Of a stretch of DNA of 8,159 bases, positions 1 to 8,159 are shown in pieces. Position 1 is the first letter of the stretch; every line of letters starts with the position of its first letter. A program made the position numbers and the translations under genes. The notes beneath the pieces are model-generated. The model had not been told where the DNA came from, made no database searches, and was given only the letters and a program-made list of their open reading frames with translations. The DNA comes from a virus (Duplodnaviria > Heunggongvirae > Uroviricota > Caudoviricetes). Location of the stretch: the IMG/VR virus record IMGVR_UViG_2671180710_000005; one strand, given 5' to 3'.

Positions 1-25
1 TCTCCAGGATTCCCGGGGCGATTCA
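1..25 (-). mobile_element. Outermost 25 bp of a probable IS3-family insertion sequence (IS629/IS1203-like end); the IS body would lie left of the window
   Basis: Positions 1-25 (TCTCCAGGATTCCCGGGGCGATTCA) are the exact reverse complement of 8135-8159. On the minus strand it reads 5'-TGAATCGCCCCGGGAATCCTGGAGA, which begins TG and, from memory, differs by one base from the IS629 terminal repeat. Family assignment is unverified. Confidence 0.55.
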
Positions 26-385: not shown

Positions 386-846
386 GCTTTAGCCCTTCTT
401 AGTAAATAGTGTGTAGGGCGACTGAAGGACCGAGTTTATGCTTTTTCGCATTGCTTTCAGTTAGTACACCGGTATCGCACCGGAAACAATCCTACGGCAA
501 ATTGGTTGTCTGACCTCTCGGTTTTTCGTGCATTAACCGATACCCACTACAGTCTCGGCGAAAGCTGCACACCCCCAGGGTGTACTGGTAGCACTCGGCA
601 CAGCCTAGCACGCCACTTTCTTCTCACTATCCAGTCTAATTTTATCCCCTAGTCAGACACTCAGATGTAGTGCTCCGCAGCGGCATGCGGGGGAATACAA
701 AAACTCGGACAAAATTGGGCCCTCCTTTTTGAATCACTCGCGGGGATGTAGTTATTAATACATGGAAAAAGATCTGTTTTCAAATCCAACATTATATGGT
801 TTCAATACCACGGGGTGGCTATGTGTTTCTCATTGTTAATTGGAAT

Positions 847-1281: not shown

Positions 1282-2808
1282 TCAAAAATAAACCTCACCA
1301 TCAACCATATATTTGAGAGCACTTATCGCCTGCTGGGCGGATATTACTTTCATTAAAGGATAGTGTTTAAAAACAATGCCATTCATAAAATAGATATCAC
1401 AGCTTTTATTATCCGTATTAATTATGATTTTTTCGAATGTTTTATAGGCAAGTGTACGGCATAACTCTCGTCCATTTTTACTGGTTAAGTCAATAGCATA
1501 AAAATCACTGAATGAATTTACACCTTTACTCTTCAAAGTTTTCAATGATACCGAAGCCCTTCTTAATTCCTTATCTAATAGTCTTATTTTCTCTGCTATA
1601 GCGGTAACTTCAGGCGCGACAGACAATGCAACGATTAAATTATTAATTTTCATCTGAAGCTCAATAATTTTTAACTCTAAAGTTTCATTAGCATCTTTCT
1701 TGTTTTCAACTGGTTGAATTTTGCTACAATTAAAAAGCAATTCATTAATGATATTATAATCAACCAAATCTCTTTTTATTGATGGCCTGTCACATCGATG
1801 TAATCTTCTCATCGGACAAACATAATAGCCATGCAAACTTCCAGATACCGCATGAACAATCATGGTATTACCACAAGCCTCACACTTCATAACTGTTCGA
1901 AGTAGATTTATTAGCATAGGATTCTTGCTACTATTGCTAATACCAAAAGGTGCCAACCGAATTTCCTGTACAGCGTAAAACAAATCATCTGATATGACTC
2001 TGGGATAATAGCCAGCGATTTCACTTATCCCTTTCCCTCTTGCACGATATGAAGGTACGCATATACCTATCAGAGCTTTATTCGCTAATAATTTTTCAAT
2101 TACAGAAGGTCCCCATGCACTTTCTTTTCCTGAGAAATTCTTTACAGCATGATCATTTAAATACTTGGCTATTGCATTCAATGAGCGCCTTTCCATCCTG
2201 AGTTTAAAAATTAGCTCAATAGTTTTCACCCTGTCGGGGTCTGGAACAAAAGCCGTTCTTTTGTCATCTAAGGAGAGCCATCTCGGACAAGACGCCGTCA
2301 TAATCGTACCTGATTCCAGTGCATCCTGCCGTTTTTTCTTCCATGATAATTTAACCCGACTTGACTTTATCTCGCTTTCTTCATTTGCCCTTTGTGCTAT
2401 AAGTATGGCTTTTATTAATGAATATGGCTCATTCAAAGAGTCAATATTATAGACTGTATTGTCGCAAAGAGTTATAACATCAATACCGTGATTCAAAATT
2501 AATTTCAGACGTTCAATCGCTTCACCGACTTTTTCTCTTGAAAGTCTGTCCAGACTTTCAACTAACAATGTAGTTCCTGGCAATATATAACCATGCTCTA
2601 TAGCATCTAAAAATTCCGAAAAAGCTCCTGATTGTGCATGCTTTCCTTTGAATGCACTTAATCCTAAATCTTCATATGTTATGGTATCAAGATAATAATC
2701 ACTATTTACCTTTAACCATTCAGCAATAAGTCTTCTCTGTCGGTTTAATGAGTCACCAGACATCTGACCTGGTGATGAAAATCGCATATATGCTATGGCT
2801 TTTTTCAT
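1282..2808 (-). CDS. ybcK: Large serine recombinase (resolvase/invertase catalytic domain plus zinc-ribbon and coiled-coil C-terminal region), 508 aa
   Basis: N-terminal AIAYMRFSSPGQ matches the serine-recombinase catalytic motif (resolvase-like xxGYxRVSTxxQ). The C-terminal part has a cysteine cluster (CEACGN...YYVCP...HRCD) typical of the large-serine-recombinase zinc ribbon. Length and position next to emrE match E. coli DLP12 ybcK as I recall it. AT-rich codon usage. Confidence 0.85.
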   Translation of the reverse strand: MKKAIAYMRFSSPGQMSGDSLNRQRRLIAEWLKVNSDYYLDTITYEDLGLSAFKGKHAQSGAFSEFLDAIEHGYILPGTTLLVESLDRLSREKVGEAIERLKLILNHGIDVITLCDNTVYNIDSLNEPYSLIKAILIAQRANEESEIKSSRVKLSWKKKRQDALESGTIMTASCPRWLSLDDKRTAFVPDPDRVKTIELIFKLRMERRSLNAIAKYLNDHAVKNFSGKESAWGPSVIEKLLANKALIGICVPSYRARGKGISEIAGYYPRVISDDLFYAVQEIRLAPFGISNSSKNPMLINLLRTVMKCEACGNTMIVHAVSGSLHGYYVCPMRRLHRCDRPSIKRDLVDYNIINELLFNCSKIQPVENKKDANETLELKIIELQMKINNLIVALSVAPEVTAIAEKIRLLDKELRRASVSLKTLKSKGVNSFSDFYAIDLTSKNGRELCRTLAYKTFEKIIINTDNKSCDIYFMNGIVFKHYPLMKVISAQQAISALKYMVDGEVYF

Positions 2809-2993
2809 GGTGACACCTGCTAACGTATGCTTTTATAAACCTTAGTGGTGGGATATAATTTTTGTTTAATTTTTATTTAAAAAAACAATTAAGGTCACAT
2901 TATCTTGAATATACAACAATAATCGTATTGCAATTTTCTTACGCCATAATCTTGAAAGCACAAAAGAACACATAAAAAAATAAAGACATTAAC

Positions 2994-3033
2994 AAAAAGC
3001 ATAAAACGAGGCTCATATAAATATAAGAGCCTC
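2994..3033 (-). terminator. Putative intrinsic terminator downstream of emrE
   Basis: 7-bp stem GAGGCTC/GAGCCTC (3008-3014 and 3027-3033) with a 12-nt AT loop. On the minus strand it is followed by a T-rich tract (GTTTTATGCTTTTT), about 30 nt after the emrE stop. Confidence 0.45.
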
Positions 3034-3064
3034 CATATTTTAGTCGTTTAGAAACAAATTATTT

Positions 3065-3397
3065 TTAATGTGGTGTGCTTCGTGACAATAGATTAATAAC
3101 CAACACACCGGCACAAATCAACATCATGCCTATAATGGCTGGCAGGTCCAGCCGTTGGCCGAAAAGTCCCCATGACAGTAAGCTAATCAGGACAATACCG
3201 ACTCCTGACCAGATAGCATAAGCAATCCCTGTAGGAATATAAGCCAGCGTCTGAGCTAATAACCAGAATGATGCACAATAACAAATAATTGTACCAACAG
3301 ATGGCCATAACCGTGTAAAACCTTCTGAAAACTTCATTAAGGTTGTACCAATGACCTCTGCAAGTATTGCACCACCAAGATAAATATAAGGGTTCAT
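3065..3397 (-). CDS. emrE: EmrE, small multidrug resistance (SMR) family efflux transporter, 110 aa
   Basis: Translation MNPYIYLGGAILAEVIGTTLMKFSEGFTRLWPSVGTIICYCASFWLLAQTLAYIPTGIAYAIWSGVGIVLISLLSWG... is near-identical to E. coli EmrE as recalled. The track ORF starts 18 codons earlier; I place the start at the MNPYIY methionine (ATG 3397-3395). Confidence 0.9.
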   Translation of the reverse strand: MNPYIYLGGAILAEVIGTTLMKFSEGFTRLWPSVGTIICYCASFWLLAQTLAYIPTGIAYAIWSGVGIVLISLLSWGLFGQRLDLPAIIGMMLICAGVLVINLLSRSTPH

Positions 3398-3464
3398 AGC
3401 ATATTCTTTCCTGTTCAAACTGGAGAGAATTGTACTACAGTTTGAACTCAACTCACCTGTTTCA

Positions 3465-4465: not shown

Positions 4466-5391
4466 AGCTCCACCCCGTAAATCCAGTCAGTGTTCGTCAG
4501 GTCGAGTTTTGGTTTGCCGGCTGTCACGCCAGCCTGTTGCTTGTTTCGGTTGATTTCGAGCTGGGTCCACTTGTCGCGGAGTTTGGCCGGACTTAGCACG
4601 TTACCGGACCAGAAGTTGTCCTGGCATGCCCAGCGGAACAGCACGCACATGTCGCGGTGGTTACGTCCGTCACGTTCACGCATCAGGCGGATATCGTTAG
4701 CCCACCCTGCAAAATTCGGTTTTCTGGCTGATGGCGCGATGGTCTTCACCATGTCAAACATCCACTCTGCGGCGGTCAGGTCTTCTGCTGTCCCCCACTT
4801 GCTGCCGCTCTGAATTGCAGCATCCGGTTTCACCACAGGAAGATCGTTTTCTGGTTGGTCAGAGGATTCGCCAGAATTCTCGGACGAAAAAGGTTTTATA
4901 TTGTCTTTTGTTAGTTTGTCTTTTGTGTTTACCTGATTCGGGTAAACGCCTTTACCTGATTTGGGTAAACTTTTTTTACCTGATTCAGGTAAATTTACCT
5001 CTTTCAGGTAAACTTTATTTTTCTTACCTGATTCGGGTAATGTTGACCATTCACTGACCACATTATTAATGCCGGTATTCCGCCCGCTCTGAATAAAAAT
5101 CCCACGCTTTACCAGAACACTTTTTGCAGCAGAACACTTGTGCGGCAATATCCCGGTTAATTCGGAAAGTTGCTCGTTGCTAACCCAATCCAGTTTTTTA
5201 TTAAAGCCATATGTTTTGCGCATGACAGCCAGAAAGACCAGAAGCTGGTGCTGTGTTAATCCGGCCAGCATCACAGCTTCCAGCAACTCATTTGCAATGC
5301 GCGTATAACCATCATCGAGATCTGCCACGCGCGGCTCCTTTTGTGCCGCATCCGGCACTGGAAAATTGAATATCTCAGCAGTGTTTGCCAT
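4462..5391 (-). CDS. O: Lambda-type replication initiator O, about 309 aa
   Basis: The C-terminal ~120 aa (EWMFDMVKTIAPSARKPNFAGWANDIRLMRERDGRNHRDMCVLFRWACQDNFWSGNVLSPAKLRDKWTQLEINRNKQQAGVTA.KPKLDLTNTDWIYGV) matches lambda O; the N-terminal domain is O-like but diverged. Start placed at MANTAEIFNF (ATG 5391-5389), which aligns with the lambda O N-terminus and has a GGGAGG SD. The track ORF extends 30 codons further to 5481. Confidence 0.88.
   Translation of the reverse strand: MANTAEIFNFPVPDAAQKEPRVADLDDGYTRIANELLEAVMLAGLTQHQLLVFLAVMRKTYGFNKKLDWVSNEQLSELTGILPHKCSAAKSVLVKRGIFIQSGRNTGINNVVSEWSTLPESGKKNKVYLKEVNLPESGKKSLPKSGKGVYPNQVNTKDKLTKDNIKPFSSENSGESSDQPENDLPVVKPDAAIQSGSKWGTAEDLTAAEWMFDMVKTIAPSARKPNFAGWANDIRLMRERDGRNHRDMCVLFRWACQDNFWSGNVLSPAKLRDKWTQLEINRNKQQAGVTAGKPKLDLTNTDWIYGVEL
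4929..5042. repeat. Origin of replication iterons (ori-lambda type) inside the O gene, with adjacent AT-rich region
   Basis: Five roughly 19-bp palindromic iterons of the form TTACCTGATTCGGGTAAAC start at 4929, 4952, 4976, 4995 and 5024. An AT-rich stretch lies at about 4885-4928, downstream in the O reading direction, as in the lambda ori. Confidence 0.8.
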
Positions 5392-6017: not shown

Positions 6018-6065
6018 AATTGACTCCTTTAGTTTGAATTGACTGTTAAGTTGATTGCTTATTGT

Positions 6066-6074
6066 TAAAGAGCG
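6066..6074 (-). promoter_or_regulatory. boxA-like antitermination motif (CGCTCTTTA, continuing AACAA) in the pR transcript downstream of cro
   Basis: Minus-strand CGCTCTTTAACAATAAGCAATCA matches the boxA consensus CGCTCTT(T)A and resembles rrn boxA (GCTCTTTAACAA). No clear boxB hairpin follows. Confidence 0.35.
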
Positions 6075-6421: not shown

Positions 6422-7111
6422 ATGAAAACAACACTCTCAGAAAGACTTAAAGAAGCCAGATTAGCGCGAGGCCTTACACAAAAGGCGCTTGGGGATTTGG
6501 TCGGGGTTAGCCAGGCTGCTATTCAGAAAATCGAAACAGGGAAAGCTAATCAAACAACTAAAATCGTGGAGATCGCGAACGCTTTGGGTGTGCGCGCAGA
6601 ATGGTTATCTTCTGGCGTTGGAAATATGTCAGACAGTACAGTGCAACCAATACAATCAACTGTCAGCCATTCCAAATACTTCAAGATTGACGTTCTTGAT
6701 ATAGAAGTCAGTGCTGGGCCGGGAGTCATCAACCGTGAGTTTGTAGAAGTTCTACGCTCGGTTGAGTACTCGTTTGACGATGCTCGTCACATGTTCGATG
6801 GTAGGAAGGCGGAAAATATCCGCATCATTAACGTGCGTGGTGACAGCATGTCAGGAACGATCGAACCAGGTGATCTGCTGTTCGTTGATATCACAGTTAA
6901 ATCTTTCGACGGTGATGGTATCTATGCGTTTCTGTACGACGACACAGCCCATGTAAAGCGCCTGCAAATGATGAAGGATAAGCTGCTGGTCATCTCTGAT
7001 AACAAAAGCTACTCACCGTGGGACCCGATCGAGAAAGACGAGATGAACCGGGTGTTCATCTTCGGTAAGGTTATTGGGAGCATGCCGCAGACATATAGGA
7101 AGCATGGGTAG
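6422..7111 (+). CDS. cI: CI-type phage repressor (N-terminal XRE-family HTH, C-terminal S24/LexA-like autopeptidase domain), about 229 aa
   Basis: The N-terminus (LSERLKEARLARGLTQKALGDLVGVSQAAIQKIETGK) is a classic HTH. An Ala-Gly cleavage site (EVSAGPG), a Ser in RGDSMSGTI and a Lys in HVKRLQ match the LexA/CI autocleavage module. Start set at ATG 6422; the track ORF begins at an upstream TTG at 6407. Confidence 0.9.
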   Translation: MKTTLSERLKEARLARGLTQKALGDLVGVSQAAIQKIETGKANQTTKIVEIANALGVRAEWLSSGVGNMSDSTVQPIQSTVSHSKYFKIDVLDIEVSAGPGVINREFVEVLRSVEYSFDDARHMFDGRKAENIRIINVRGDSMSGTIEPGDLLFVDITVKSFDGDGIYAFLYDDTAHVKRLQMMKDKLLVISDNKSYSPWDPIEKDEMNRVFIFGKVIGSMPQTYRKHG

Positions 7112-7232
7112 TACCAATTAAAAATTATCAACTGGGCATTGTGCTCATTCAGTAAAGAACTAATTCCTATCTTTGCTCTAGGTAGTAATATTAAGCCACC
7201 GCAATAATATCTTTACCTAACGGCGTAAGAAT

Positions 7233-7259
7233 CCCGGTCACCGTGCCGGGTTTTCTTTT
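7233..7259 (+). terminator. Putative intrinsic terminator downstream of cI
   Basis: GC-rich hairpin CCCGG-tcaccgtg-CCGGG (7233-7250) followed by TTTTCTTTT. Confidence 0.6.
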
Positions 7260-7369
7260 GCCCTCCCCTCATCACACACACCGTTAAAAAAACCACCATA
7301 ACCTCGCTTCAGTTATCGCTATGCGATTCAAGTCACAAAATAAATCCATCCTAAATACAACCAGTTATA

Positions 7370-7430
7370 TCTAAAACAACCAATAAAACAACTTTTGTTG
7401 TTGACGATAAAACAACTATAGTTTTAAATA
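7370..7430 (+). promoter_or_regulatory. OL operators and pL-like promoter
   Basis: Palindromes AACAACTTTTGTTGTT (7387-7402) and AAAACAACTATAGTTTT (7409-7425) share the GTTGTT/AACAAC half-site with OR. -35 TTGACG (7401-7406), 17-bp spacer, -10 TTAAAT (7424-7429), directed toward the early-left genes. Confidence 0.5.
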
Positions 7431-7706
7431 AGTTCATCGCAACAACACAACGATACGGCAACTACCTGATTCACCGTTGCGATGACCGCTTAGATCCGCA
7501 GTTTGAATTTCAGCAGGCTTCGGGGAGTGCGAGGGGTGAAACGGACGCGTGAACGTCGGTGTGACCAGCTGAAATTAACTCAACATTTCATACCTTAGTC
7601 GCTTCAACGAGGCGGCTTAGTTATGACAACCGGCGGCCATCCACCGCCTGAATACGCGCAGAAGTCTCTATATGTTCAGCAGCCCAGCTTACGGGCAGGA
7701 GTTTTT

Positions 7707-7913
7707 ATGGTTCATCAACATTATGGAACGCAGACCGTTAATCGAGGTGCGGTCATGCCAGGAATGCTGGTCAAACACAAAGATGGTACCTGGACTGCAT
7801 CAGCTAATTTACGCGGACGGCTTTATCTGCATCGCGGCATCGAGCGCACTTATACCCGTGATTTGCTCGTGGAAGTTTTTCTCGACGGACGCGGTAACGG
7901 CCTGAATCACTAA
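7707..7913 (+). CDS. Hypothetical small protein (68 aa from ATG 7707; the track ORF extends to 7623) in the pL operon
   Basis: AGGAG SD 5 nt upstream of ATG 7707. Codon usage is ordinary. No arginine-rich motif, so it is not an N-like antiterminator; no family recognised. The overlapping alternative frame 7672-7905 lacks an SD. Confidence 0.4.
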
Positions 7914-7988
7914 TCCCCTTTCCTGTTTTCCTAATCAGCCTGGCATTTCGCGGGCGATATTTTCACAGCCATTTTCAGGAGGTCAGCC

Positions 7989-8134
7989 ATGAACGCTTAT
8001 TACATTCAGGATCGTCTTGAGGCTCAGAGCTGGGCGCGTCACTACCAGCAGATCGCCCGTGAAGAGAAAGAGGCAGAACTGGCAGACGACATGGAAAAAG
8101 GCCTGCCCCAGCACCTGTTTGAATCGCTATGCAT
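7989..8134 (+). CDS. ea10: Ea10-like protein, N-terminal fragment (about 49 codons), cut by the terminal IS-like repeat
   Basis: [48 protein letters not shown] matches the lambda Ea10 N-terminus as recalled. Strong SD (CAGGAGG). The reading frame runs into the 25-bp terminal repeat, after which similarity ends. Confidence 0.65.
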
Positions 8135-8159
8135 TGAATCGCCCCGGGAATCCTGGAGA
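8135..8159 (+). mobile_element. Outermost 25 bp of a probable IS3-family insertion sequence (IS629/IS1203-like end); the IS body would lie right of the window
   Basis: TGAATCGCCCCGGGAATCCTGGAGA is the exact reverse complement of positions 1-25. It begins with TG, as IS3-family ends do, and interrupts the ea10-like ORF. Confidence 0.55.

What the first reader, a model, noticed from the sequence alone, without database searches (positions are those of the whole stretch)
7431..7622. No N antiterminator gene; about 190-nt structured leader downstream of pL
No arginine-rich N-like ORF exists between pL and the early-left genes on either strand. The transcript start region contains a 10-bp stem (7434-7443 TCATCGCAAC pairing with 7476-7485 GTTGCGATGA) and a second imperfect stem around 7519-7575. 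Phages such as HK022 dispense with N and use cis-acting put RNA elements near pL and pR; this leader could be an analogous antitermination or regulatory RNA. Short stems like these can arise by chance, so this is a hypothesis only.
Basis: inference. Interest (0 to 1): 0.5.

Follow-up and report, generated by a model that had tools for sequence, protein, structure and literature searches.

The report
Untranslated pL leader of N-less prophage
The stretch is the untranslated start of the early-left (kil-gam-bet-exo) message of a very common E. coli lambda-like prophage that really has no N gene, but it does not match the HK022 put antiterminator RNA model, and apart from a hairpin at the very 5' end it shows no sign of a conserved RNA structure.

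Summary
The window is the immunity region of a lambdoid prophage, 100% identical over 7100-8130 to inducible phage PhiR34_1, an apparently intact relative of cryptic DLP12. Both stems are at or near the stated coordinates, and no N homologue was found in the window or in the 44.6-kb phage.

The put reading fails. A covariance model built from eight put sequences scores known putL and putR at 56-101 bits and finds nothing in the leader. There is no matching element downstream of pR and no boxB-like hairpin.

The leader is a mosaic 5' UTR:
- **5' hairpin:** a stem starting at the predicted +1 is kept in four promoter types whose loops differ.
- **Core:** it aligns weakly, in register, with the lambda N-leader just 3' of nutL.
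- **3' part:** it recurs upstream of kil in phage HK225.

Diversity in 7437-7622 is close to that of third codon positions, and predicted folds change with the boundaries chosen.

The likeliest role is an ordinary leader whose 5' hairpin stabilises the mRNA. How the phage passes the terminator-like hairpins beyond exo is unknown. A perfect rrn-type boxA lies just after cro.

The parts
7401..7429 (+). Predicted pL promoter: -35 TTGACG (7401-7406), 17-bp spacer, -10 TTAAAT (7424-7429). Repressor operator half-sites (AAAACAAC) overlap it.
   Evidence: Read from the sequence. The same promoter type in Salmonella phage UPF_BP1 (L010) places putL at the distance seen in HK022, which points to +1 at about A7436. 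Homology with phages of other immunity types begins at about 7437. The start site is inferred, not measured.
7436..7483 (+). 5'-terminal hairpin (stem 1). It is 8 bp in the RNA from the predicted +1 and 10 bp at the DNA level (7434-7443 / 7476-7485), with a 32-nt C-rich loop.
   Evidence: One search shows perfect arms. One search gives p of about 0.008 in shuffles. Searches show that a closing stem from +1 is kept in four promoter/5'-end types (A, B, C, D) whose loops differ or are unrelated. Type D offsets an A.C mismatch with two extra G-C pairs. The homologous 5' end of put-bearing phage S9-5 forms its own 8-bp hairpin upstream of put.
7487..7495 (+). CGCTTAGAT, a possible decayed boxA relic. 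It is not a functional-looking boxA.
   Evidence: Read from the sequence. It fails the boxA pattern search even with 3 mismatches allowed. Only its position relative to the lambda-like segment suggests a relic.
7506..7576 (+). Stem 2 domain: arms 7506-7517 and 7565-7576 enclosing a G-rich 47 nt.
   Evidence: Folded alone (7500-7582) it gives -26.8 kcal/mol, z = -1.9. It is absent from the minimum-energy folds of longer stretches. Variants are one-sided and wobble-compatible only.
7511..7565 (+). Segment resembling the lambda N-leader just 3' of the nutL boxB, at the same distance from +1 (+76 onward in both).
   Evidence: There are 18 of 22 identities at offsets 75-97 in both leaders, with a weaker extension to about +129. 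15 of 1000 shuffles reach the score. The in-register position adds weight. This is borderline and depends on the inferred start site.
7596..7618 (+). Hairpin 3, GUCGCUUC-AAC-GAGGCGGC (-10.6 kcal/mol). Its 3' arm holds GAGG, which lies 10 nt before the in-frame ATG at 7623.
   Evidence: z = -3.3, boundaries chosen after the fact. Variants U-G to U-A and C-G to U-G keep the pairing. The segment 7586-7650 recurs upstream of kil in HK225, where the loop is changed and the stem is kept.
7632..7648 (+). Hairpin 4, GGCGG-CCAUCCA-CCGCC. It has no U tail and so is not terminator-like.
   Evidence: It is also present in HK225.
7623..7706 (+). The most conserved part upstream of kil (pi 0.015). It contains AGGAG at 7697-7701 and is in frame with kil from ATG 7623.
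   Evidence: Third positions are no more diverse than first and second (0.017 against 0.014), so it is probably constrained as a translation-initiation or regulatory region rather than as coding sequence.
7707..7913 (+). kil, the first gene of the early-left operon (68 aa).
   Evidence: phrog_294 at E 1e-37. Third-codon-position excess of polymorphism, 8/13/37. It follows the leader in 80 of 81 distinct loci.
6062..6074 (-). Perfect boxA, CGCTCTTTAACAA, 13 nt after the cro stop codon on the pR transcript.
   Evidence: 0 mismatches. By my own arithmetic, about 2e-4 exact 13-mer matches are expected in 8159 bases on two strands. It sits in the same cro/YdaT-like context in 48 leader-bearing loci. 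It is context for the finding, not part of the leader.

Best explanation
The region is the 5' untranslated leader of the pL early-left mRNA (kil-gam-bet-exo) of an N-less lambdoid prophage family.

It is a mosaic of at least three pieces:
- a 5'-terminal stem-loop that begins at the first transcribed base;
- a core that looks like a decayed lambda-type N-leader, keeping the stretch just 3' of nutL but with no boxB and no usable boxA;
- a kil-proximal piece that travels with kil in other phages.

The most likely working part is the 5' hairpin. By analogy with the ompA type of 5' stem-loop, it would protect the transcript from 5'-end-dependent decay by RppH and RNase E. The last 80-110 nt (hairpins 3 and 4 and the Shine-Dalgarno region) probably tune translation of the toxic Kil protein. 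The body of the leader is probably not a specific RNA machine and does not match the put family.

Shown: the anatomy, the absence of N, the failed put match, the retention of the 5' stem and the near-neutral diversity. Inferred: the transcription start, the stabilising role and the translational tuning.
For: - **Identity and layout:**
- **5' stem:** it is perfect over 10 bp and rare by chance. A stem closing from +1 is kept in four 5'-end types with different loops. The homologous 5' end in put phage S9-5 forms its own 5' hairpin ahead of put, so this element is separate from any antiterminator.
- **Weak constraint on the body:** pi for 7437-7622 is 0.037, against 0.054 for kil third positions, 0.040 for gam third positions and 0.035 for the kil-gam spacer.
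- **No structural signal:** polymorphism is equal at predicted paired (21.5%) and unpaired (21.2%) positions. The fold is unstable to the choice of boundaries, and z = -0.33.
- **Stronger constraint near kil:** pi is 0.015 in 7623-7706.
- **Mosaic origin:** the in-register match to the lambda N-leader, 7586-7650 shared with the HK225 kil upstream region, and tight linkage to kil in 80 of 81 loci.
Against: - The phage has no N, yet two terminator-like hairpins lie between exo and the distal genes up to int. One lies in sequence homologous to lambda 31184-31362, which from memory is tL3. If pL transcripts must reach int, something has to provide read-through, and the leader is the only non-coding element between pL and kil.
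- The diversity comparison uses sequences chosen because they contain a 23-nt leader word, within a recombining population, so it is a rough guide only.
- All available homologues are at least 93% identical, so real structure could be hidden by lack of variation.
- The transcription start site is predicted, not measured.
Confidence: 0.5

Rival explanations
1. The leader is a cis-acting processive antiterminator RNA of a new family. It would do the job of put, modifying RNA polymerase as it is transcribed so that polymerase reads through the downstream terminators, without being related to put.
For: - N is absent from a phage recorded with E. coli K-12 MG1655 as host.
- Terminator-like hairpins lie downstream in the operon.
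- The element starts at +1, like putL.
- The core is joined to at least four different promoter and immunity types and occurs in 2231 of 5426 complete E. coli genomes.
Against: - There is no put model hit.
- There is no second copy downstream of pR, although the right operon would need read-through as well.
- Diversity is near neutral, with no excess constraint at paired positions.
- The fold is not robust.
- The leader is tightly linked to kil rather than to pL. Its 3' part sits after a terminator, far from pL, in HK225.
Confidence: 0.13
2. The leader is a nutL-like loading site for a trans-acting factor, either an unrecognised phage antiterminator protein or the host Nus complex alone. It would pair functionally with the boxA found after cro.
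For: - A perfect rrn-type boxA lies at the nutR position.
- The leader core resembles the lambda N-leader next to nutL.
- The related N-less phage HK225 has a hairpin plus a near-consensus boxA (TGCTTTTTAACAA) in its pL leader.
- The scan finds only weak terminator-like matches (5-pair stems) on the transcribed strand between cro and Q. Rho-dependent termination, which boxA and the Nus factors counteract, could therefore be the main barrier on the right.
Against: - No boxA occurs in the leader or anywhere in the left operon, even with 2-3 mismatches allowed.
- There is no boxB-like hairpin, and no hairpin is shared between the two transcripts.
- No candidate antiterminator protein was found.
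Confidence: 0.1
3. Apart from promoter-proximal bases and the kil ribosome-binding region, the leader is functionless spacer. On this reading it is a scar left when N and its boxB were lost, and the stems are incidental.
For: Diversity is near neutral. The composition is mosaic. The fold is not robust. There are no compensatory changes within the family.
Against: The 10-bp perfect stem is unlikely by chance. A 5' closing stem persists across unrelated loops and in relatives with other leaders.
Confidence: 0.22

Closest known systems
HK022 putL / putR (polymerase-utilisation antiterminator RNAs)
   Same: The phage lacks N. The element lies at the very start of the pL transcript. Terminator-like hairpins lie downstream. 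Some put-bearing relatives (S9-5, phiEt88, UPF_BP1) share promoter-proximal sequence with this phage.
   Different: There is no sequence or structure match to a put covariance model that recovers all known put sites. The conserved stem II motif GGCGGGYUCAGGAWGARCGGCAAU is absent, as is the P0/P1 pseudoknot. There is no second copy after pR.
Lambda N-leader / nutL region
   Same: It has the same position (pL to first gene) and a similar length (lambda 223 nt, here 187-270 nt). There is an in-register resemblance from +76 onward to the lambda sequence just 3' of boxB. A boxA sits after cro, as in nutR.
   Different: The leader has no boxB hairpin and no usable boxA, and there is no N gene. I saw no partner arm for the long lambda hairpin of which, as I read the lambda sequence, this segment forms the 5' arm (by eye only). 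From memory that hairpin is the RNase III site.
5'-terminal stabilising stem-loops of E. coli mRNAs (ompA 5' UTR type; established knowledge, recalled from memory)
   Same: The stem starts at or within a base or two of the predicted 5' end. The stem is conserved while the loop is free to vary.
   Different: There is no experimental half-life data. The loop is unusually large (32 nt) and the hairpin is only -8.6 kcal/mol.
rrn-type boxA / Nus-factor antitermination (applies to the element after cro, not to the leader)
   Same: From memory, the 12-mer GCTCTTTAACAA is identical to the rrn boxA.
   Different: No flanking boxB or boxC was recognised. It lies in a phage right operon without N. Its function is untested.

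Membership tests
HK022 put RNA | Matches the put consensus in sequence and structure (P1 helix, stem II with a bulge, and the conserved internal-loop motif) | tested here: not met
   Model R1 was built from 8 put sequences. The window was searched with filters off and gave no hit in 7431-7706 at E <= 10. The best hit anywhere was 9.6 bits, inside the O gene. Known putL sites score 92-101 bits, PdC23 62 bits, and putR sites 56-59 bits, including untrained ones. Leader relatives L002-L004 and L014-L022 gave no hit.
HK022 put RNA | Lies just downstream of the pL start | tested here: met
   The leader begins at the predicted +1 (about 7436), which is also the homology breakpoint with phages of other immunity types. 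The start site is inferred.
HK022 put RNA | A related second copy downstream of pR | tested here: not met
   Local alignment of the leader against 3.3 kb of the pR transcript scores 21, against 22.1 +/- 2.8 in shuffles. There is no R1 hit on that strand.
HK022 put RNA | Promotes terminator read-through without phage proteins and is blocked by RNA polymerase beta' zinc-binding-domain mutations | not testable with these tools
   Needs reporter assays or in-vitro transcription.
Lambda-type nut site | boxA (CGCTCTT(T)A) | tested here: not met
   There is no match in the leader or the left operon with up to 2-3 mismatches. The only boxA is on the pR transcript, at 6062-6074 on the minus strand.
Lambda-type nut site | boxB: a short stem with a purine-rich GNRA-like loop, the same at nutL and nutR | tested here: not met
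   The scan covered 5-bp stems with 4-7-nt loops. The leader has three such hairpins and none has a G...A purine-rich loop. None is shared with the pR transcript.
Lambda-type nut site | A cognate N protein with an arginine-rich motif, encoded by the phage | tested here: not met
   Full annotation, PHROG scans, an arginine-rich-motif scan and tblastn with lambda N, Nun and HK225 gp041 found none. The 31-aa Arg-rich ORF at 7503-7598 lacks a Shine-Dalgarno sequence and a family match, and the leader shows no coding signature.
5'-terminal stabilising stem-loop | The stem begins within a few bases of the mRNA 5' end | tested here: inconclusive
   This is met if +1 is at A7436, since pairing starts at 7436. 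The start site is only inferred, from the promoter and from the HK022/UPF_BP1 analogy.
5'-terminal stabilising stem-loop | The stem is conserved independently of the loop sequence | tested here: met
   Types A and B pair AUCGCAAC or GUCGCAAC with GUUGCGAU. Type C pairs AUUGCA with UGCGAU around an unrelated loop. Type D has an A.C mismatch plus two extra G-C pairs. Relatives S9-5 and Silvania have their own 5' hairpins.
5'-terminal stabilising stem-loop | Lengthens mRNA half-life | not testable with these tools
   Needs rifampicin chase experiments with stem-disrupting and compensatory mutants.
Any Rfam family | Hit to a curated covariance model | tested here: not met
   cmscan of the whole window at E <= 10 gave five weak hits, none in 7380-7720.

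The most novel reading that the evidence does not exclude
The 5' hairpin plus the 7470-7585 core form a previously unrecognised, put-unrelated cis-acting antiterminator RNA. It would replace N in a lambdoid lineage present in about 41% of complete E. coli genomes, while the right operon uses a bare consensus boxA with host Nus factors. That would be a wholly protein-free early antitermination scheme.
Probability: 0.12. Interest if true: 0.8.

Novelty: new member of a known kind. Interest (0 to 1): 0.3.

Why it matters
The leader itself looks ordinary. The case matters for two reasons.

First, it settles that the put hypothesis does not apply. A model that recovers every known put site finds nothing here.

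Second, it points to a real gap. A lambdoid lineage carried by about two in five sequenced E. coli (intact relatives of cryptic DLP12, and the Bievrevirus phages) has no N, no put and no nut sites. It still keeps terminator-like hairpins in its early-left operon and a consensus rrn-type boxA after cro. How its delayed-early genes, including int, are reached is unknown and can be tested directly with simple reporter fusions.

Tried and rejected
- **Rfam:** a scan of the whole window at E <= 10 found nothing in the leader.
- **put covariance model:** no hit in the leader.
- **Paired element after pR:** none.
- **boxA and boxB in the leader:** pattern scans found none.
- **The Arg-rich 31-aa ORF as a mini-N:** rejected. 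It has no Shine-Dalgarno sequence and no family match, its TAG/CAG is polymorphic, and the leader shows no codon periodicity. Such stretches are common off-frame.
- **Perceval's 139-aa 'Kil' annotation spanning the leader:** rejected as a reading-frame extension. Its PHROG match starts at residue 63 and it has a non-canonical start.
- **Covariation:** 84 distinct leader variants from IMG/VR showed only one-sided, wobble-compatible changes. RNAalifold and the single-sequence folds disagree.
- **More distant homologues:**
  - Kil relatives in Citrobacter, Kluyvera, Silvania and Enterobacter carry a different, non-alignable leader.
  - blastn at E <= 10 with the core found only the same E. coli phage group.
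- **Known prophage sRNAs (AgvB, AsxR, Pas):** these are either in Rfam or lie elsewhere in prophages. There was no match.
- **Literature:** searches on N-less lambdoids and Bievrevirus found nothing that mentions this leader. One search failed on a term that was too short.

Full report
**What the window is.**
The 8159-base window is the immunity and early region of a lambdoid prophage.
- On the + strand lie an S24/LexA-type repressor (6422-7111), then pL, kil and the start of gam.
- On the - strand lie a YdaS-type cro (6317-6087), a YdaT/CII-like gene, O, P, ren, an EmrE-like SMR pump and a YbcK-like serine recombinase.
- Positions 7100-8130 are 100% identical to Escherichia phage PhiR34_1, a complete 44.6-kb phage recorded with host E. 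coli K-12 MG1655. Its nin region (ren-emrE-ybcK-ybcL-ybcM-ybcN-ninE-ybcO-rusA-ylcG-Q) matches, from memory, that of cryptic prophage DLP12.

**Checking the observation.**
- Both stems are in the sequence. Stem 1 is 7434-7443 / 7476-7485, 10 of 10 paired. Stem 2 is 7506-7517 / 7565-7576, 11 of 12 paired.
- Stem 1 is unlikely by chance: 16 of 2000 shuffles of the leader contain a perfect stem of at least 10 bp, and the window holds 3 against 0.39 expected.
- As a whole the leader does not fold better than shuffled sequence (z = -0.33). The minimum-energy fold changes completely with the boundaries chosen.
- The claim that no arginine-rich ORF exists is not literally true. A TTG-initiated 31-codon ORF at 7503-7598 encodes ...RLRGVRGVKRTRERR....
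- I reject that ORF as an N gene for four reasons:
  - It has no Shine-Dalgarno sequence and no PHROG match.
  - Its stop codon is CAG in 58 of 84 distinct variants.
  - The leader shows no codon periodicity (17/16/19 polymorphic sites by codon position), whereas kil shows a clear one (8/13/37).
  - Comparable Arg-rich stretches occur 29 times in the six-frame translation of the phage.
- Kil matches phrog_294 over the 68 aa that start at ATG 7707, behind AGGAG at 7697-7701. The untranslated stretch is therefore about 270 nt, or 187 nt if the in-frame ATG at 7623 is also used.

**Is N really missing?**
Yes, as far as sequence can show.
- Nothing N-like is annotated anywhere in PhiR34_1. The only antiterminator listed is Q.
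- PHROG scans of the small or unnamed early ORFs give no N family.
- tblastn with lambda N, HK022 Nun and the first pL gene of HK225 gives only noise.
- Relatives with other immunity regions (Bievrevirus 4A7, Perceval, PhiR70_1) have the same layout of pL, leader and kil with no N.

**Is it put?**
- I took putL from HK022, HK639, phiEt88, CobraSix, S9-5, UPF_BP1 and PdC23, plus HK022 putR.
- I derived the helices from their covariation and from the cryo-EM description (PMC9378689), then built a covariance model.
- The model scores known putL sites at 92-101 bits, PdC23 at 62 bits and putR sites at 56-59 bits, including three putR sites it was not trained on.
- With filters off it finds nothing in the leader at E <= 10. 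The best hit in the window is 9.6 bits, inside the O gene. It also finds nothing in leader relatives.
- A weak look-alike, GAAACGGACGCGTGAACGTCGGTG (about 7538-7561), lacks the put pseudoknot pairing and the whole of stem II.
- The leader has no counterpart on the pR transcript: the alignment score of 21 compares with 22.1 +/- 2.8 in shuffles.
- No boxB-like hairpin occurs on either transcript, and Rfam gives nothing.
- Membership of the put and nut families is therefore tested and not met.

**What the leader is made of.**
The leader occurs in 2231 of 5426 complete E. coli genomes and was not annotated in any of the 40 listed hits. In 122 IMG/VR loci and the phage records it is followed by kil in 80 of 81 distinct sequences. 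It is preceded by at least four different promoter and 5'-end types. It is a mosaic of three pieces.

*1. The 5' stem.*
- By analogy with HK022, and with UPF_BP1, which has the same promoter type, the -10 is TTAAAT at 7424-7429 and +1 is about A7436. Pairing therefore starts at the first transcribed base.
- The stem persists in all four types:
  - types A and B pair AUCGCAAC or GUCGCAAC with GUUGCGAU;
  - type C pairs AUUGCA with UGCGAU around an unrelated loop;
  - type D has one A.C mismatch offset by two extra G-C pairs and an inner helix (-19.2 kcal/mol, z = -3.05).
- The homologous 5' end of put-bearing phage S9-5 (CAUCGAAACAACACAGCG... against CAUCGCAACAACACAACG... here) forms its own 8-bp hairpin ahead of put. 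It carries an A-U to C-G exchange relative to the window.
- The Silvania and Enterobacter kil leaders also begin with a 6-bp hairpin.
- The 5' stem is thus a recurrent feature of these pL transcripts, and it is distinct from the antiterminator where one exists.

*2. The core.*
- Positions +76 to +97 (7511-7532) match lambda +76 to +97 at 18 of 22 positions. In lambda this is the stretch immediately 3' of the nutL boxB.
- The score is reached by 15 of 1000 shuffles. The match lies on the main diagonal and extends weakly to about +129.
- Together with a boxA-like remnant (CGCTTAGAT, 7487-7495), this suggests a decayed N-leader that has lost boxB and N. I regard this as plausible but borderline.

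*3. The kil-proximal part.*
- Positions 7586-7650, which hold hairpins 3 and 4, recur upstream of kil in phage HK225.
- There they follow three ORFs and a strong intrinsic terminator, so they are far from pL.

**Is the body of the leader constrained?**
I compared 88 distinct sequences that are homologous from the leader through gam.

| Region | Nucleotide diversity (pi) |
|---|---|
| 7437-7622 (excluding the 23-nt search word) | 0.037 |
| kil third codon positions | 0.054 |
| gam third codon positions | 0.040 |
| kil-gam spacer | 0.035 |
| kil first and second positions | 0.005 |
| 7623-7706 | 0.015 |

- The body of the leader thus varies about as much as the neutral proxies. Only 7623-7706 is clearly more conserved, and it shows no third-position excess.
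- Polymorphic sites are equally frequent at predicted paired and unpaired positions.
- All changes at paired positions are one-sided. Many are wobble-compatible, but no double compensatory change occurs within the family.
- Two caveats apply. The sample was selected on a leader word, and the population recombines. I treat the comparison as indicative only.

**Context that keeps the question open.**
- Two terminator-like hairpins follow exo in PhiR34_1, at L001 8715-8737 and 9312-9330.
- The first lies in sequence about 95% identical to lambda 31184-31362, which from memory is the tL3 terminator carried on pKD46. Here its T-tract is two bases longer.
- The distal genes up to int lie beyond both hairpins.
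- On the right side, a perfect boxA (CGCTCTTTAACAA) lies 13 nt after the cro stop, at 6074-6062 on the minus strand. From memory, its last 12 bases are identical to the rrn boxA.
- That boxA is found in the same cro/YdaT context in 48 leader-bearing loci.
- The scan finds only weak terminator-like matches (5-pair stems) on the transcribed strand between cro and Q. A Nus/boxA mechanism acting against Rho could therefore suffice there. This is inference.
- The left operon has no boxA.
- HK225 shows the reverse arrangement: a hairpin plus near-consensus boxA in its pL leader, and none in the first 4 kb of its right operon.

**Verdict.**
- The stems and the absence of N are real. The put-like interpretation is not supported.
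- The best reading is an ordinary, mosaic 5' UTR. Its conserved functional part is a 5'-terminal stem-loop, probably an mRNA stabiliser. Its last roughly 85 nt are constrained around the kil translation start.
- A new kind of cis-acting antiterminator cannot be excluded, because the phage evidently needs some way past the terminators. I put it at about 0.12, because every structural or comparative test that could have supported it came back neutral or negative.

Noticed in passing
window 1-25 and 8135-8159: The window begins with TCTCCAGGATTCCCGGGGCGATTCA and ends with its exact reverse complement. The right-hand copy replaces phage sequence in the middle of gam: PhiR34_1 continues ...GCATCGATCATTTG. 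This looks like an adaptor, linker or assembly artefact rather than biology, and it truncates gam.
   Followed up: partly
window 6062-6074 (- strand): A perfect boxA, CGCTCTTTAACAA, lies 13 nt after the cro stop, at the position of lambda nutR but with no boxB and no N in the phage. It is conserved in 48 leader-bearing loci, all in the same cro/YdaT-like module. It may mark N-independent, Nus-factor antitermination of the right operon.
   Followed up: partly
window 7431-7706; 2231 of 5426 complete E. coli genomes: The leader is present once in about 41% of complete E. coli genomes, at 93-100% identity for nearly all of them. None of the 40 listed hits has an annotated feature over it.
   Followed up: yes
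window 7596: The TAG that closes the 31-codon Arg-rich ORF is CAG in 58 of 84 variants. That opens a frame running from about 7493 through kil, and Perceval annotates this frame as a 139-aa Kil.
   Followed up: yes
L144 (HK225) 2250-2320: The pL leader of N-less, phi80-like phage HK225 has a GC hairpin followed by TGCTTTTTAACAA, a boxA with one mismatch, in what I recall as the rrn order (hairpin then boxA). The first gene downstream is a 70-aa lysine/arginine-rich protein of unknown function.
   Followed up: partly
L014, L017-L020 about 2320-2500; L015, L016 about 2420-2500: Kil genes of Citrobacter, Kluyvera, Silvania and Enterobacter prophages carry a different leader. By eye it has a conserved hairpin, CGCCAG-CC-TGGCG, and in the longer form a stem of about 17 bp (GTGAGCTTCGCGGTGGTG / CACCACCAGCGAAGTTCAC) just before the Shine-Dalgarno sequence. 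I did not analyse it for covariation.
   Followed up: no
L001 8715-8737 and 9312-9330: Two terminator-like hairpins lie in the early-left operon beyond exo. The first lies in sequence about 95% identical to lambda 31184-31362 and has a T-tract two bases longer than in lambda.
   Followed up: partly
window 4927-5013: A cluster of TTTACCTGATTCGGGTAAA-type inverted and direct repeats lies inside the O gene. This is the expected iteron-type replication origin. It also accounts for three of the five weak Rfam hits.
   Followed up: no
window 386-846: About 460 nt have no sizeable ORF. They lie between a 118-aa ORF with no Pfam match and a P22 antirepressor C-terminal-domain protein (847-1170, - strand). 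This left end differs from PhiR34_1 but is 100% identical to prophages in E. coli H10, EC93 and others.
   Followed up: no
window 1282-3451: An EmrE-like SMR pump and a YbcK-like serine recombinase sit in the nin region, as I recall for cryptic DLP12 of K-12. PhiR34_1 looks like an intact, inducible relative of DLP12.
   Followed up: no
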